From assembly GCA_050012475.1 (NCBI GenBank), contig JBEKHC010000088.1, positions 1-21,413 on the forward strand: 21,413 bases of DNA, given 5' to 3'. The position numbers are program-made. The stretch comes from Candidatus Velthaea sp. (lineage in GTDB: Bacteria > Vulcanimicrobiota > Vulcanimicrobiia > Vulcanimicrobiales > Vulcanimicrobiaceae). Positions 6,001 to 9,000 of the stretch are shown piece by piece (position 1 is the first letter of the stretch; the number at the start of each line of letters is the position of its first letter).

Positions 6001-9000
6001 TGGGCGCAGAACTTCAGCGTGCTGTGGGGCAACTTGTACTACAATCCCTGGCACCAGCTCGCGATTTTCTTCCTGTTCGGATCGACGATGCTGTGGGGCA
6101 TGCACGGCGCGACGATTCTCGCAACGTCCGCCGAGGGCAGCCACCACGAAGTCGCCGAGATCAAAGACATGCACTCGGGCTCGCACAAGTCGATGCTGTT
6201 CTGGCGCTGGACCATGGGCTGGAACGCCAACCCCAAGACCATTCACGATTGGATCTGGTGGTTCTCGGTCGGTGTCGTGGTGAGCTGCTCGATCGGCATC
6301 ATCAGCACGGGCTGGATCACCAATGACTGGTACGTCTGGGGGGTCGACAACGGAACGGTCGCGCAATACGGGCCGCTGACGCGCGACGCGATCAACCTGC
6401 GCCCGAACCAAGTGAAGCTCGAGCTGCCGGTCTATATGCCGCAGCCGGTGAACCGCTAATGAACATCAAACGCGTCCTCGGACCCATCGTCATCGTCTGC
6501 GTGCTCTCGTTATCGGGCTTGGTCCAGCCGCTCATCGACAAGGCTCGGGCGGCGGACGGCCCGGGTCAAGTCACCAGCAAGGCGGGTCCGTGGGCTCCCG
6601 GCGGTTCGACTGCCCCCGAAGCGCCGCATCTCTCATCGTCGATCGGCACCCAGGACGGCGGACAGATCCCGCCCGAGGCGCTCAAGGGCGTCGGCCCCGT
6701 CGATCAAAGCGCGCCGCTGGATTTCAGCGATCAGCCGGCCGCGGTCCCGCATCAATACGTCGGCGGTCGCACCTACAACGTGCAAGTCCTCAAACAGTAC
6801 TCGTACGTGCAGCTGCTGGGCCAGATGAACCAGTACACGGTGGCACTGGGCGTGCAGTGCACGTACTGCCACAACGTGCAGAACTTCGCGTACGACACGC
6901 CAACAAAGAGGGTTGCGCGGACGATGCAGATTATGTCCAACGAAGTTGGACGGTCGTGGGTCGATCCGATCAAGAAAGATTATCCGAACTACGCGGTCAA
7001 TGGTGCCGTGGGATGCGTAACGTGTCATCGCGGCGCTCCGCGAATGGGTGTTTCATGGAACATCGTGCCGGTGCAATTCTTGAACTACCGCTATAAATCG
7101 ACCAAGCAGGTCGGCTATGTGGTGAACTCGATGTACTCGGTGGCTCGGTCGCTGGGCGTGAACTGCCTGTTCTGCCACAACACGGCCGACTTCCTGACGC
7201 TTCAATACTATCCGACGAACCAGATCGCACATCGCATGTGGGCGATGGTCGATAAGATCAACCACGAGTATCTGCCGGCGAACATCAAGGCCGTTACGTG
7301 CTATACCTGTCACCAAGGTGCGAAGTGGCCGCAGGCGCTCGTGACCGCGGGCCTGGATCAGGCTCCCGCCGATGCGGTCGCCGCCCATCCGGAAGTTCAT
7401 GAGAATCCCGGAGCCCATCTAGCGTCGGGAGCGTTGCCCTGATTGGACCTCTTTTGGAGCTTGCCGGACTCGCGAGATTTCGCCGGCCTCACTGCCCCGC
7501 TCGATGAACTCTTCGGCGCTGCGCAATCGCGGAAGTATGAATCCGGTGCGTCGGTGTCCGATCCCGAGTTTGCACCGGAACGTGCGTTCCGGTGCGTCTC
7601 AGGCACGATCAAGGTAACGAAGCTCCTCGCGAGCGGACGCGAGATCCTCATCACGATCTTACAGACGGGCTCCGTCTGGAGCGATCGCGCGGTCCTCAAC
7701 GGCTACTGGCGCGACGTCTTCCTCGAAGCGATGGAGCCCAGCGAGATCGTCTCGGTCGACGCCGCCGCCTTCGAGCGCGTCGTGCGCTCATCGCCGGATC
7801 TGCTGGCCAAGTTCATGCTGCGCATCTCCGAGCAAGTCTCGGATGCCCTCACGCTGCTTGACGATTTCCGCGGCCGCGACGTTGCCTCGCGGCTGGCTCG
7901 GGTCCTCGTGCGCTTCTCCAAACAATACGGCGTGCCGACCGAACGCGGCGTCCGCATCGAACTCCCGGTCACCCACCAAGACCTCGCCAACATGATCGGC
8001 ACTGCGCGCGAAACAGTCTCTCGTAACATGGCCCGTTTCCGCCAGCAGGGCTACGTCAAAGACGGGCACGCCGCCACCCTCGAAATCCTCAACCTCGACT
8101 CGCTCGAAGCGCTCATCGTCTAGCCGGTCAAGAAAGAATCGTCCCCTGCTTGCCCGCAGCGAGCCGGAAAAAAACGGCGGCACCCTTTCGGGGGTGCCGT
8201 TTGCTTGTGCGTCACGAAGGTCGGTGGCCAGCCGGGAGGGGGTAATTGGGTTGCCGGGCGTCCCCCGCAACCGAACGAGCCCCTCCCGCTCCCCACAGGC
8301 CGGGTGACGACTATCACCGTGCCTAATTCTCCGGATGCCTACGATAACCAACGGAGGGAGAACGTCCGCACGTGGCATACGGGGATTCCGAACAAATGGT
8401 CGCTCGGCGAGCCGCGAGCGTATGGACCAAAATCCATCCGATTTTCGCCCTCGGCCAACTGCTCGCGTTCTTCGTGAGCGTCGGCTTCTTGATCGGTTAC
8501 TTCCGCGGGGCCGTTTCCATGGAGGCCGTGCACCAATCGGTGCTGGTCAAAGTCGCGCTGATGTTCGGTGCGATCATCACCGGCGCGCTGTGGGAGAAGG
8601 ACGTCTTCGGCCAATATTGGTTTGCCCCGGAGTTCCTAGCCGAAGACACGATGACCCTCAACGTGTTCATCTTGCACATCTCCTATCTCGGACTGGCGGC
8701 CGCGAATCCGGAGAACATCACCGTACAGATCGGCATGCTGATCGTAGCGTACGGCGTGTACATCGCGAACGTCGCTCAATACGTGGTGCGTACAGCGGTG
8801 CTGGGAAAGCACGTCGCCGTTCGGGTGCGCTCGCGGTGAGCGGCGCCGTGCAGGCGGTCGTGTTTGCCGAGGCCGGTCAGCTCGATTTCCGTCCGGTGAC
8901 GCTGCGTGCGGCGGCGGCCGACGAAGTCGTGGTCGACACGCGCTTTTCGTCGATCTCCGCGGGCACGGAACGGCTGCTGTTCGATGGGCGCTTGCCGGCG

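What a model noticed while it worked through the whole genome (the two positions that open the first line are those of the whole stretch)
7443..8372. GGTGA-N6-TCACC operator ties the scattered bacteriochlorophyll operons into one regulon, with CRP-family regulators in t [...]
A 16-bp palindrome, GGTGA-N6-TCACC, stands 33-83 bp before the start codon of every bacteriochlorophyll-synthesis operon, although these lie on four contigs: bchF-C-X-Y-Z (C88:8303-8318), bchN-B-G-P (C97:12966-12981), bchL (C54:27475-27490), bchH (C54:21322-21337) and bchM-acsF (C52:550-565). It has the 5-6-5 layout of CRP/FNR-family sites. Two CRP-family genes sit beside these operons and occur only in the family's phototrophs. 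One is g03950, right behind pufC (C88:7443-8123). The other is a ~361-aa protein with a ~155-aa all-helical N-terminal extension before bchM, here split over two contig ends (g01460, C20:1-996, and g02954, C52:2-184, which overlap and so join C20 to C52). I propose t [...]
Evidence so far: A blind count of all 5-mer inverted repeats with 2-8 nt spacers found the motif in 5 of 16 photosynthesis upstream regions, against 2 of 1909 others. There are 14 exact copies genome-wide: 9 inside genes, and the 5 intergenic ones are the bch sites. With one mismatch there are 25 more intergenic copies, one of them 234 bp before pufB. In relatives: in G292, 6 of 6 copies in the genome lie before bchF, bchX, bchN, bchL, bchH and bchM; in G156, 5 of 7 (bchF, bchN, bchL, bchH, bchM); in G162, 2 of 4 (bchH, bchN). 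The reversed control pattern gives 0, 0 and 2 copies. In the held stretches of closed genomes G011 and G145, the only copies (2 each) lie before bchF and bchN. Among 300 other family g [...]
(Added by a program. Inside this text positions count along the whole contig: contig position 1 is position 1 of the stretch shown here. "Call 12" and the like, gene names such as g00115 and contig names such as C1 are that model's own, and its searches are not shown. The text may have been shortened before it was handed on; [...] marks where a part breaks off. The agent that wrote the report below was given it as the finding of a first reader that could run no searches.)

Follow-up and report, generated by a model that had tools for sequence, protein, structure and literature searches.

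The report
Two CRP-type switches for photosynthesis genes
In light-harvesting members of the little-known phylum Eremiobacterota, two conserved DNA palindromes sit at activator positions, one before the pigment-synthesis operons and one before the reaction-centre operon, and two regulator genes found only in these phototrophs probably read them.

Summary
GGTGA-N6-TCACC is at 8303-8318. The genome has 14 exact copies, and five lie 33-83 nt before bchF, bchN, bchL, bchH and bchM. The invariant core is GTGA-N6-TCAC.

Across 30 bchF-carrying genomes of the family (18 genera), a copy with at most 2 mismatches stands before 25-29 of 28-30 genes of each kind.

A TAnnnT -10 box starts 21-22 nt after the site in 108 of 131 cases, against 4 of 131 on the mirror side, and there is no -35. 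This puts the site centre at -41.5, the class II CRP/FNR activator position. bchH looks leaderless.

g03950 has an orthologue in 30 of 30 phototrophs and 0 of 318 other family genomes. It always lies beside bchF or bchC. Its recognition helix (RETVSR, CRP-like) is invariant and fits GTGA.

New here: a second operator, GTAG-N6-CTAC, precedes pufB in the window and in 17 of 17 relatives, and also precedes the second LH pair. It fits the long regulator's NtcA-like RVTVTR helix. That regulator's N-terminal extension folds as a histidine-less globin.

I propose a cascade: globin-CRP activates the puf operon, which includes g03950, and g03950 activates the bch operons. Binding, the signal and the sign of regulation are untested.

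The parts
881..894 (+). B-like operator with 1 mismatch (GAAGCGTGGACTAC), before a small ORF followed by crtI and crtB
   Evidence: The same 14-mer and its flank are kept in G001 and G002, although the surrounding DNA is only 76% identical. This has been seen within one genus only.
917..922 (+). -10-like TATGAT, 22 nt after the 14-mer
   Evidence: Read; geometry.
4087..4100 (+). Operator B, GTAGTACGCACTAC (GTAG-N6-CTAC), 81 nt before pufB
   Evidence: Exact copies stand 69-100 nt before pufB in 16 of 17 relatives' loci. The 17th, L037, carries it by direct search. G000 has only 6 exact copies in the whole genome.
4124..4129 (+). -10-like TATAGT, 23 nt after the 14-mer (site centre about -42.5)
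   Evidence: Read.
4182..4568 (+). pufB (4182-4370) and pufA (4383-4568), the light-harvesting beta and alpha chains
   Evidence: Pfam LHC; ORFs.
4597..7442 (+). pufL (4597-5418), pufM (5446-6459) and pufC (6459-7442)
   Evidence: Pfam Photo_RC twice and CytoC_RC.
7443..8123 (+). g03950, a short CRP-family regulator of 226 aa and probably the last gene of the puf operon. Its recognition helix is ARETVSR.
   Evidence: An orthologue is present in 30 of 30 phototrophs and 0 of 318 other family genomes. It lies next to bchF or bchC in 28 of 28 loci. The 17-residue helix-turn-helix stretch is identical in 28 of 28.
8178..8199 (.). GC-rich hairpin with an A-run before it and a T-rich tail after it. 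It is the likely end of the puf-g03950 transcript.
   Evidence: The scan flags it on the - strand; the + strand tail TTTGCTTG is read.
8303..8318 (+). Operator A, GGTGACGACTATCACC (core GTGA-N6-TCAC)
8340..8345 (+). -10-like TACGAT, 21 nt after operator A (site centre -41.5). GGAGGG lies at 8353-8358 and the GTG start at 8372.
   Evidence: Read.
8372..14203 (+). bchF (8372-8839), bchC (about 8836-9795), bchX (about 9786-10814), bchY (11275-12600) and bchZ (12557-14203)
   Evidence: Pfam and ORFs. The bchC/bchX overlap is read.

Best explanation
The palindrome at 8303-8318 is the operator of an activator-dependent (class II type) promoter. The same kind of promoter drives bchFCXYZ, bchNB, bchL, bchH and bchM-acsF in every phototroph of this Eremiobacterota family.

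The most likely binder is g03950. This is a phototroph-specific CRP-family dimer whose helix carries the CRP-type Arg-Glu...Arg triad, which fits a GTGA half-site. Bound at -41.5, it would recruit RNA polymerase to promoters that have a -10 box (TAnnnT) but no -35.

g03950 is itself the last gene of the puf operon. That operon, and the second light-harvesting pair, carry a different operator (GTAG-N6-CTAC) at about -42.5. This operator fits the NtcA-like Arg-Val...Arg helix of the 361-aa regulator encoded before bchM. That regulator's extra N-terminal domain is a histidine-less globin fold, presumably the sensor.

The circuit would then be a cascade: globin-CRP activates the reaction-centre and antenna genes plus g03950, and g03950 activates pigment synthesis.

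Shown here: the sites, their conservation, their fixed distance to the -10 box, the separation of the two site types by operon, the distribution and gene order of both regulators, the invariant helices, and the globin-like model.

Inferred: who binds what, that binding activates, the transcription starts, and the signal.
For: Site is real and specific.
- There are 14 exact copies in G000, and five lie before bch operon leaders.
- A matrix from 126 sites of other genomes ranks them 1, 2, 3, 4 and 6 genome-wide.
- The site is conserved before the same genes in up to 30 genomes of 18 genera.
- Where bchL and bchN abut, only the first gene carries a site (G041, G052, G176, G178, G262, G350).
- Where a gap opens before bchX, a new site plus TACGAT appears.

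Activator geometry.
- TAnnnT starts 21 nt (81 sites) or 22 nt (27 sites) after the site, 108 of 131 in all. The mirror side has 4 of 131.
- No sigma-70-type two-hexamer promoter is found in 3700-8500 (0 found, 1.3 expected).
- bchH has 33-35 nt from site to ATG in 27 of 30 genomes, and the -10 box ends 6 nt before the ATG.

Regulator.
- g03950 has orthologues at 58-100% identity in 30 of 30 phototrophs. The best hit in the other 318 genomes is 32%.
- Across one genome per species of 185,579 species, the 28 close relatives all lie in a bchF or bchC context, and 18 of them also follow pufC. The next best hits are 31% identical, in Rubrobacteraceae.
- The helix is identical in 28 of 28.
- It aligns with NtcA's helix, with Glu where NtcA has Val.
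- CRP residues 180, 181 and 185 contact bases 5, 7 and 8, and residues 180/181 predict the site (PMC2677863, passages). The two operators differ at exactly bases 7 and 8.

Two classes kept apart.
- 523,830 bases of relatives' bch loci hold 122 refined A sites and 1 refined B site.
- pufB upstream regions hold B in 17 of 17 relatives.
- B sites also precede the extra long-regulator modules in G007, G176 and G251.

Other systems. No PpsR/CrtJ scores above the curated cut-off in 5 of 5 genomes.
Against: - There are no binding, transcription-start or expression data. The -41.5 position rests on a predicted -10 box.
- A site over the -35 region could also serve a repressor.
- G000 encodes two other CRP-family proteins with an Arg-Glu helix: C127 (RETVNR) and C44 (RETLTK). 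The C127 type is widespread in non-phototrophs.
- bchN promoters lack TAnnnT and show CAnnAT or GACAAT instead.
- In genus g5 (G007, G042) g03950 is not in the puf operon. In G007 pufB carries an A-type site, not a B-type one.
- Three genomes (G046, G050, G251) have no site before their best bchF copy. In two of them bchF follows a long-regulator paralogue.
- The helix-to-site rule is a correlation that failed for half of the engineered CRP variants (4 of 8 worked; PMC2677863).
- The cascade needs g03950 to be co-transcribed with pufC. This is inferred only from the abutting genes and the hairpin after g03950.
Confidence: 0.6

Rival explanations
1. The site and the protein are as proposed, but the protein is a repressor. 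g03950 would bind over the place where the -35 contact would be made and shut the bch operons off, for example in strong light or high oxygen, as PpsR/CrtJ does in purple bacteria.
For: The site overlaps the -35 region. Aerobic anoxygenic phototrophs commonly repress pigment synthesis (established knowledge, recalled). CRP-family proteins can repress (PMC2677863 discussion).
Against: No -35-like hexamer is present for a repressor to occlude. The spacing is fixed to 1 nt across 108 of 131 promoters, as expected for a protein-polymerase contact. A repressor gene at the end of the puf operon would make reaction-centre expression shut off pigment synthesis, which is a less natural design.
Confidence: 0.15
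2. The operator is real but is read by another CRP-family protein. This could be the family-wide paralogue with an RETVNR helix (C127 type), linking pigment synthesis to a global signal. It could instead be the globin-bearing long regulator, with g03950 acting elsewhere.
For: G000 has other Arg-Glu helices, and the C127 type occurs in many non-phototrophs. The long regulator gene lies directly before the bchM site.
Against: A global regulator should have many intergenic sites, yet the matrix scan finds essentially only the bch sites. The long regulator has Val where CRP has Glu, like NtcA, which matches the GTAG operator better. g03950 co-occurs perfectly with the sites and sits next to one.
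Confidence: 0.15
3. The palindrome is not a protein operator. It would be a chance repeat, an RNA or DNA hairpin, or a remnant of mobile DNA.
For: Inverted repeats of 5 bp are common in 64% G+C DNA. The swapped-arm pattern has 10 copies in G000.
Against: The arms are invariant while the 6-nt spacer and the flanks vary. The site lies upstream of the predicted -10 box and so outside the transcript. It is kept at the same five operons across 18 genera.
Confidence: 0.02

Closest known systems
Escherichia coli CRP at class II promoters (site TGTGA-N6-TCACA centred at -41.5)
   Same: Same 5-6-5 palindrome with the same GTGA core. Same Arg-Glu...Arg recognition triad in g03950. Same inferred position overlapping the missing -35. 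Pfam domains cNMP_binding plus HTH_Crp_2.
   Different: The outer base is G or C, not T. The regulon is five pigment operons, not a global one. The score against the CRP equivalog model is 55 bits against a cut-off of 266. The ligand is unknown. The E. coli residue numbers and the -41.5 rule are recalled, supported in part by PMC2677863.
NtcA of cyanobacteria (GTA-N8-TAC, class II activator, senses 2-oxoglutarate)
   Same: NtcA is the best solved-structure match of g03950 (E 1e-20) and among the best of the long regulator. The long regulator shares NtcA's RVTVTR helix, and operator B (GTAG-N6-CTAC) is a subset of GTA-N8-TAC. Its position is also about -41.5 to -42.5.
   Different: Both proteins score far below the NtcA equivalog cut-off: 76.6 and 66.8 bits against 244.95. 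The targets are photosynthesis genes, not nitrogen genes. The long regulator has an added globin-fold domain. The NtcA site consensus and its position are recalled.
FnrL and CrpK of Rhodobacter (CRP/FNR-family regulators of photosynthesis and tetrapyrrole genes)
   Same: CRP/FNR-family control of photosynthesis genes in an anoxygenic phototroph (PMC4263372, abstract seen in the listing).
   Different: FnrL scores are 35.7 and 24 bits against a cut-off of 300. g03950 has a single Cys and so no FNR-type iron-sulfur cluster motif. TTGAT-N4-ATCAA occurs only 3 times in G000. The FnrL site is recalled.
PpsR/CrtJ, the repressor of bch, crt and puc genes in purple bacteria and Gemmatimonas
   Same: It plays the same biological role: one operator shared by several pigment operons.
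   Different: It belongs to another protein family (PAS plus Fis-type HTH), binds another site (TGT-N12-ACA, recalled) and acts with the opposite sign. No member scores above the cut-off in 5 of 5 genomes searched.
Globin-coupled sensors and the non-heme globin domain of RsbR
   Same: The N-terminal 155 aa of the long regulator model confidently (pLDDT 90). They align with cytoglobin (Z 11.5, rmsd 3.0, 128 aligned), the AfGcHK sensor globin (Z 11.2), and RsbR or stressosome N-domains (Z 11.0 and 10.7). All of the top 50 rows are globin-fold proteins.
   Different: There is no invariant histidine anywhere in the domain, so it is not a canonical heme sensor. The output domain is a CRP-family DNA binder. 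I did not find this combination in the held papers with the one search. For helical models, Z under about 13 can reflect a common arrangement (tool note).

Membership tests
CRP/FNR family (g03950) | N-terminal cNMP-binding-like beta-roll and C-terminal Crp-type helix-turn-helix | tested here: met
   PF00027 scores 33.7 bits (cut-off 27.5). PF13545 scores 73.9 bits (cut-off 27). PF00325 scores 39.3 bits (cut-off 21).
CRP proper (cAMP receptor, equivalog PRK11753) | Score over the curated equivalog cut-off | tested here: not met
   55 bits against a cut-off of 266.
CRP proper (cAMP receptor) | cAMP-contacting residues in the beta-roll | not tested
   No residue-level alignment to E. coli CRP was available from the tools.
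CRP-type DNA recognition | Arg-Glu-x-x-x-Arg in the recognition helix, paired with a GTGA half-site | tested here: met
   The helix reads ARETVSR and is identical in 28 of 28 orthologues. The operator core GTGA is 99% conserved. The link between the two rests on PMC2677863 and on recall.
FNR-type oxygen sensors | Cluster of Cys residues for a 4Fe-4S centre | tested here: not met
   g03950 has one Cys in 226 aa. FnrL and Fnr models score 35 bits against cut-offs of 228-300.
NtcA (equivalog TIGR03697) | Score over the curated cut-off | tested here: not met
   g03950 scores 76.6 bits and the long regulator 66.8 bits, against a cut-off of 244.95.
Class II activator-dependent promoter | Site centred near -41.5 from the transcription start | tested here: inconclusive
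   The distance to a predicted -10 box fits in 108 of 131 sites. No transcription start has been mapped.
Class II activator-dependent promoter | No functional -35 hexamer | tested here: met
   No two-hexamer promoter is found in 3700-8500. The bases at -35 are the end of the palindrome plus GTG or GAG.
Class II activator-dependent promoter | Transcription depends on the bound protein | not testable with these tools
   This needs in vitro transcription or a mutant.
Globin-coupled sensor (long regulator, N-terminal domain) | Globin fold | tested here: met
   The model has pLDDT 90. VIA Z reaches 11.5 with 119-134 residues aligned in the top 8 rows. Foldseek's top rows are globins at E 0.045-0.1.
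Globin-coupled sensor (long regulator, N-terminal domain) | Proximal histidine that ligates heme | tested here: not met
   There is no invariant His among 25 sequences. The G001 protein has a single His (H40), which is not invariant.
PpsR/CrtJ system | A PpsR/CrtJ protein scoring over the TIGR02040 cut-off | tested here: not met
   The best score is 35 bits against a cut-off of 275.4 in 5 of 5 genomes. The same weak level is seen in 8 of 14 control genomes.

The most novel reading that the evidence does not exclude
Phototrophic Eremiobacterota run photosynthesis through a self-contained, two-tier CRP-family cascade embedded in the photosynthesis gene cluster.

Tier 1 is a new kind of sensor: a histidine-less globin fused to a CRP-family DNA binder. 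It may read a tetrapyrrole intermediate, or the redox or light state. It switches on the reaction-centre and antenna operons through GTAG-N6-CTAC.

Tier 2 is g03950, which is co-transcribed with the reaction-centre genes. It then switches on five bacteriochlorophyll operons through GTGA-N6-TCAC, so that pigment is made only when apoprotein is being made.

The two operators differ by two bases per half-site, and the two helices differ at the matching residue. This would be a natural example of an orthogonal regulator pair created by duplication.
Probability: 0.35. Interest if true: 0.8.

Novelty: new variant of a known kind. Interest (0 to 1): 0.68.

Why it matters
Nothing is in print in the held library about how Eremiobacterota control photosynthesis. 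The two genome papers on their phototrophy do not mention a regulator, a promoter, Crp or PpsR (text searches; library searches). Their supplements were not read.

This work gives a concrete and testable wiring diagram:
- two operators with base-level definitions;
- two candidate regulators;
- predicted transcription starts, including a leaderless bchH;
- a predicted sensor domain.

A member of the long-regulator family is named from the cultured species Vulcanimicrobium alpinum, so bench tests are possible.

The result also shows a route to coordinating pigment and apoprotein synthesis that does not depend on the PpsR/RegA/FnrL systems of purple bacteria. This bears on how photosynthesis gene sets become regulated after they move between phyla.

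Tried and rejected
- RNA evidence was weak. Four metatranscriptome runs of one study hold 6-9% of the sampled words. When laid, two contigs are 100% identical to the window (8736-8961 and 9512-9734), and several others are 92-97% alike over puf and bch genes. This shows presence in RNA libraries only. Contigs cannot give starts, strand or level, and DNA carry-over is not excluded, so I draw no conclusion from it.
- The protein atlas gave no usable hit for the globin-like domain.
- Pfam finds nothing in the first 160 aa of the long regulator.
- Foldseek on the full-length long-regulator model returned only CRP-family chains, because that part dominates. The domain had to be folded alone.
- I looked for an A or B site before the long regulator gene itself. 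There is no consistent site in 24 loci.
- Relaxing the pattern to SGTGA-N6-TCACS raises the background to 25-58 copies per genome, mostly GTGAA or GTGAG in coding DNA. The useful refinement is Y at position 6 and R at position 11.
- bchE: a related gene is found in only 10 of 30 phototrophs, far from the cluster. Only three copies (G000 C60, G042, G007) show GGGAC-N5-GTCAC plus a -10 box. The others sit inside operons. I do not count bchE as a regulon member.
- Outside the family, bchF was found in 0 of 104 genomes of 20 other families in a phylum sample, so there was no distant phototroph to test.
- I did not test co-variation between operator and helix, because both helices are invariant.
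Full report
**What the window holds.** The window is contig C88 of a 5.36-Mb, 204-contig, 64% G+C genome. Record titles of the closest relatives place it in Eremiobacterota (Vulcanimicrobiota), genus Candidatus Velthaea. From left to right it carries these genes:
- crtI and crtB;
- pufB (4182-4370) and pufA (4383-4568);
- pufL, pufM and pufC (4597-7442);
- the CRP-family gene g03950 (7443-8123);
- bchF, bchC, bchX, bchY and bchZ (8372-14203).

**Checking the observation.**
- GGTGACGACTATCACC is at 8303-8318.
- NCBIfam names the gene after each of five copies as BchF, BchN (then BchB), BchL, BchH and BchM (then AcsF). The gaps to the start codon are 53, 83, 61, 33 and 56 nt.
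- My crude ORF caller places 8 of the other 9 copies inside ORFs and one (C22:20316) between convergent genes.
- The raw count is not special, since the swapped-arm pattern has 10 copies. The placement is what stands out.
- The two contig-end pieces of the long regulator overlap by about 30 residues with one difference. The intact gene has 361 aa in G001 and 352-365 aa in 26 other copies.

**Conservation.**
- PF07284 (BchF) marks 30 of 348 genomes of the family, in 18 of 78 genera, as phototrophs.
- In a phylum sample it marks 0 of 104 genomes of 20 other families.
- I fetched the bchF, bchN, bchL, bchM and bchH loci of these 30 genomes and scanned 350 nt upstream of each gene. The counts are exact / up to 1 mismatch / up to 2 mismatches:
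  - bchF 22/26/27 of 30;
  - bchN 14/20/25 of 29;
  - bchL 17/24/27 of 28;
  - bchM 17/28/28 of 28;
  - bchH 13/22/29 of 30.
- I set aside five of the up-to-2-mismatch hits as doubtful before later counts: bchN in G041, G052 and G176, and bchH in G053 and G350.
- The invariant part is GTGA-N6-TCAC. The outer base is G or C, position 6 is C or T and position 11 is A or G. The flanks carry about 0.05 bits.
- The misses make sense. Where bchL abuts bchN, only bchL has a site. The three genomes without a bchF site have g03950 elsewhere, and in two of them bchF follows a paralogue of the long regulator.
- In G001 and two other Velthaea genomes an intergenic gap before bchX carries its own site plus TACGAT. 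In G000, bchC and bchX overlap and there is no such site.
- A matrix built from 126 sites of the other genomes and run over all of G000 ranks bchL, bchF, bchH and bchN first to fourth and bchM sixth.

**Activation or repression.** I aligned the DNA downstream of the sites.
- A TAnnnT hexamer (TAGCGT, TACGAT and similar) starts exactly 21 nt (81 sites) or 22 nt (27 sites) after the 16-mer. That is 108 of 131 sites.
- On the mirror side of the palindrome there are 4 of 131.
- Most of the 23 misses are bchN promoters, which show CAnnAT or GACAAT at the same place.
- With the hexamer at -12 to -7, the palindrome spans -49 to -34 and is centred at -41.5 (or -42.5).
- The bases where a -35 would lie are the end of the palindrome plus GTG or GAG. 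The consensus scan finds no two-hexamer promoter anywhere in 3700-8500.
- This is the layout of class II CRP/FNR-dependent promoters (established knowledge, recalled), so activation is the better reading. A repressor at the same place is not excluded.
- For bchH, 27 of 30 genomes have 33-35 nt between site and ATG, and the hexamer ends 6 nt before the ATG. The transcript would therefore start at or next to the A of the start codon, which makes it leaderless. This is inference, as no start has been mapped.

**Which regulator binds.**
- g03950 has an orthologue of 58-100% identity in 30 of 30 phototrophs. The best match in the other 318 genomes is 32%. That tally includes the unpublished genomes G318, G205 and G233 among the non-carriers.
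- In a collection of one genome per species for 185,579 species, 28 close relatives were found. The next hits are 31% identical, in Rubrobacteraceae.
- All 28 lie directly before bchF or bchC, and 18 directly after pufC.
- The 17-residue stretch HQDLANMIGTARETVSR is identical in all 28, although overall identity falls to 57%.
- In the alignment to NtcA, the query's RETVSR lies over NtcA's RVTVTR.
- In CRP, residues 180, 181 and 185 contact bases 5, 7 and 8 of the half-site, and the pair 180/181 predicts the site across the family (PMC2677863, passages).
- Arg-Glu...Arg is the CRP combination for GTGA (recalled).
- The long regulator instead reads SNRVTVTR, in 25 of 28 copies, with RVTITR in the other 3.

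**A second operator.**
- The NtcA-like helix predicts GTA-N8-TAC, so I looked for it. GTAGTACGCACTAC is at 4087-4100, 81 nt before pufB, with TATAGT 23 nt after it.
- Exact GTAG-N6-CTAC stands 69-100 nt before pufB in 16 of 17 relatives' loci that hold the upstream DNA. In the 17th it is found by direct search.
- G000 has only 6 exact copies. Two lie in ORFs. One is at pufB. One lies 71 nt before a second LH beta/alpha pair on C103. Two have no clear target.
- A 1-mismatch copy (881-894) with TATGAT 22 nt after it precedes a small ORF followed by crtI and crtB. It is kept letter for letter in G001 and G002, within DNA that is 76% identical.
- The two operators do not mix. In 523,830 bases of relatives' bch loci there are 122 refined A sites and 1 refined B site.
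- Exception: in G007 (genus g5), g03950 follows crtI, crtB and a DNA-repair gene rather than pufC. There pufB carries an A-type site, and B sites lie near a second module of bchF, bchI, bchD, bchH and a long-regulator paralogue.

**The long regulator's extra domain.**
- The first 155-160 aa have no Pfam match.
- They occur in 29 of 348 family genomes. These are 28 of the 30 phototrophs plus G179, which is 80% complete and has no bchF found.
- In the large protein collection they occur only in CRP/FNR proteins of similar length: 60 clusters, of which the 53 near-full-length ones have 351-397 aa. One is named from Vulcanimicrobium alpinum.
- Folded alone with 25 sequences, the domain gives pLDDT 90 and pTM 0.79.
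- The wide structural search returns only globin-fold proteins in its top 50: cytoglobin (Z 11.5), sensor globins (11.2, 10.9), RsbR-type non-heme globins (11.0, 10.7) and phycobiliproteins (about 10.5). Foldseek agrees weakly, at E 0.045-0.1.
- The tool warns that Z under about 13 can be a common helical arrangement. The uniform family of hits and the 119-134 aligned residues in the top 8 rows argue for a true globin-like fold.
- No histidine is invariant, so a canonical heme sensor is unlikely. Tyr43, Trp44 and three arginines are invariant. What it senses is unknown.

**The proposed circuit.** g03950 starts at the base after pufC's stop codon and is followed by a GC-rich hairpin (8178-8199), so it is probably the last gene of the puf operon. 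I propose the following chain:
1. The globin-CRP binds GTAG-N6-CTAC.
2. This activates the puf operon, including g03950, the second LH pair and, in Velthaea, the crt operon.
3. g03950 binds GTGA-N6-TCAC.
4. This activates five bch operons.

No A or B site precedes the long regulator gene in 24 loci, which fits a top-tier position. No PpsR/CrtJ scores above the cut-off in 5 of 5 genomes.

**Rivals.** The main ones are a repressor reading of the same site, and a different binder. G000 has two more Arg-Glu helices, on C127 and C44. A global binder is hard to square with a regulon confined to the bch promoters.

**Novelty.**
- Searches of the held library for Eremiobacterota or Vulcanimicrobium together with regulators, Crp or photosynthesis genes found no description.
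- The two phototrophy papers contain no occurrence of Crp, PpsR or promoter (text searches). I did not read their supplements.
- One search for a globin-coupled CRP listed no paper containing 'globin-coupled' among the 12 rows shown, out of 555 papers holding 3 of the 4 terms.
- The mechanism class is textbook. The new parts are the phototroph-specific regulator pair, the two near-orthogonal operators and the globin fusion.

Noticed in passing
L233:1981-2120 (G001), and likewise L234, L235, L240 and L241; in G000, between C20:996 and C20:1085: A palindrome CGAACGTACGTTCG lies between the long regulator gene and the divergent Lhr-type helicase gene. It resembles the LexA (Cheo) box of Gram-positive bacteria (recalled), so the helicase may belong to an SOS regulon.
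   Followed up: no
G000 contigs C19:35155-35829, C60:29307-31064 and C6:28072-28947: G000 alone has a second copy of g03950 (82% identical, next to panE and a BNR-repeat gene). It also has two bchE-like genes. The C60 copy is closer to those of other genera (90-92%) than to that of its own genus (81%). With 5.3% contamination and the largest genome of its genus, the bin may mix two organisms.
   Followed up: partly
G000 C60:29248-29261; upstream of the bchE-like gene in G042 (L292) and G007 (L293): A half-degenerate element GGGAC-N5-GTCAC is followed after 21-22 nt by TACGAT or TATCAT. It stands before a B12-binding radical-SAM (BchE-like) gene in three genomes. In seven other copies the gene sits inside an operon without it.
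   Followed up: partly
G007:C1:2596682-2606156 (L270); G176 near 545 kb and 990 kb: Some genomes carry one or two extra modules of bchF-like, bchI, bchD, bchH-like and a paralogue of the long regulator, with GTAG-N6-CTAC sites nearby. This looks like a second, separately wired magnesium chelatase set.
   Followed up: partly
window 10815-11274: About 460 nt between the end of bchX and the first start codon of the bchY frame have no assigned gene. An overlapping 292-aa frame (10400-11278) is open. This could be a frameshift in bchY, an unusual start or a small gene.
   Followed up: no
L266-L269 (G261, 80 kb): In closed relatives the photosynthesis operons are interleaved with unrelated genes, including catalase, a TIR-domain protein, an EAL-domain protein and transporters. 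Each bch operon keeps its own site. The Mg-chelatase I/D fusion gene has none.
   Followed up: partly
L037:765-950: In this close relative (96% identical g03950), only residues 38-62 of pufB align, although the operator lies at the usual 81 nt before that point. The pufB 5' part may be rearranged or misassembled there.
   Followed up: no
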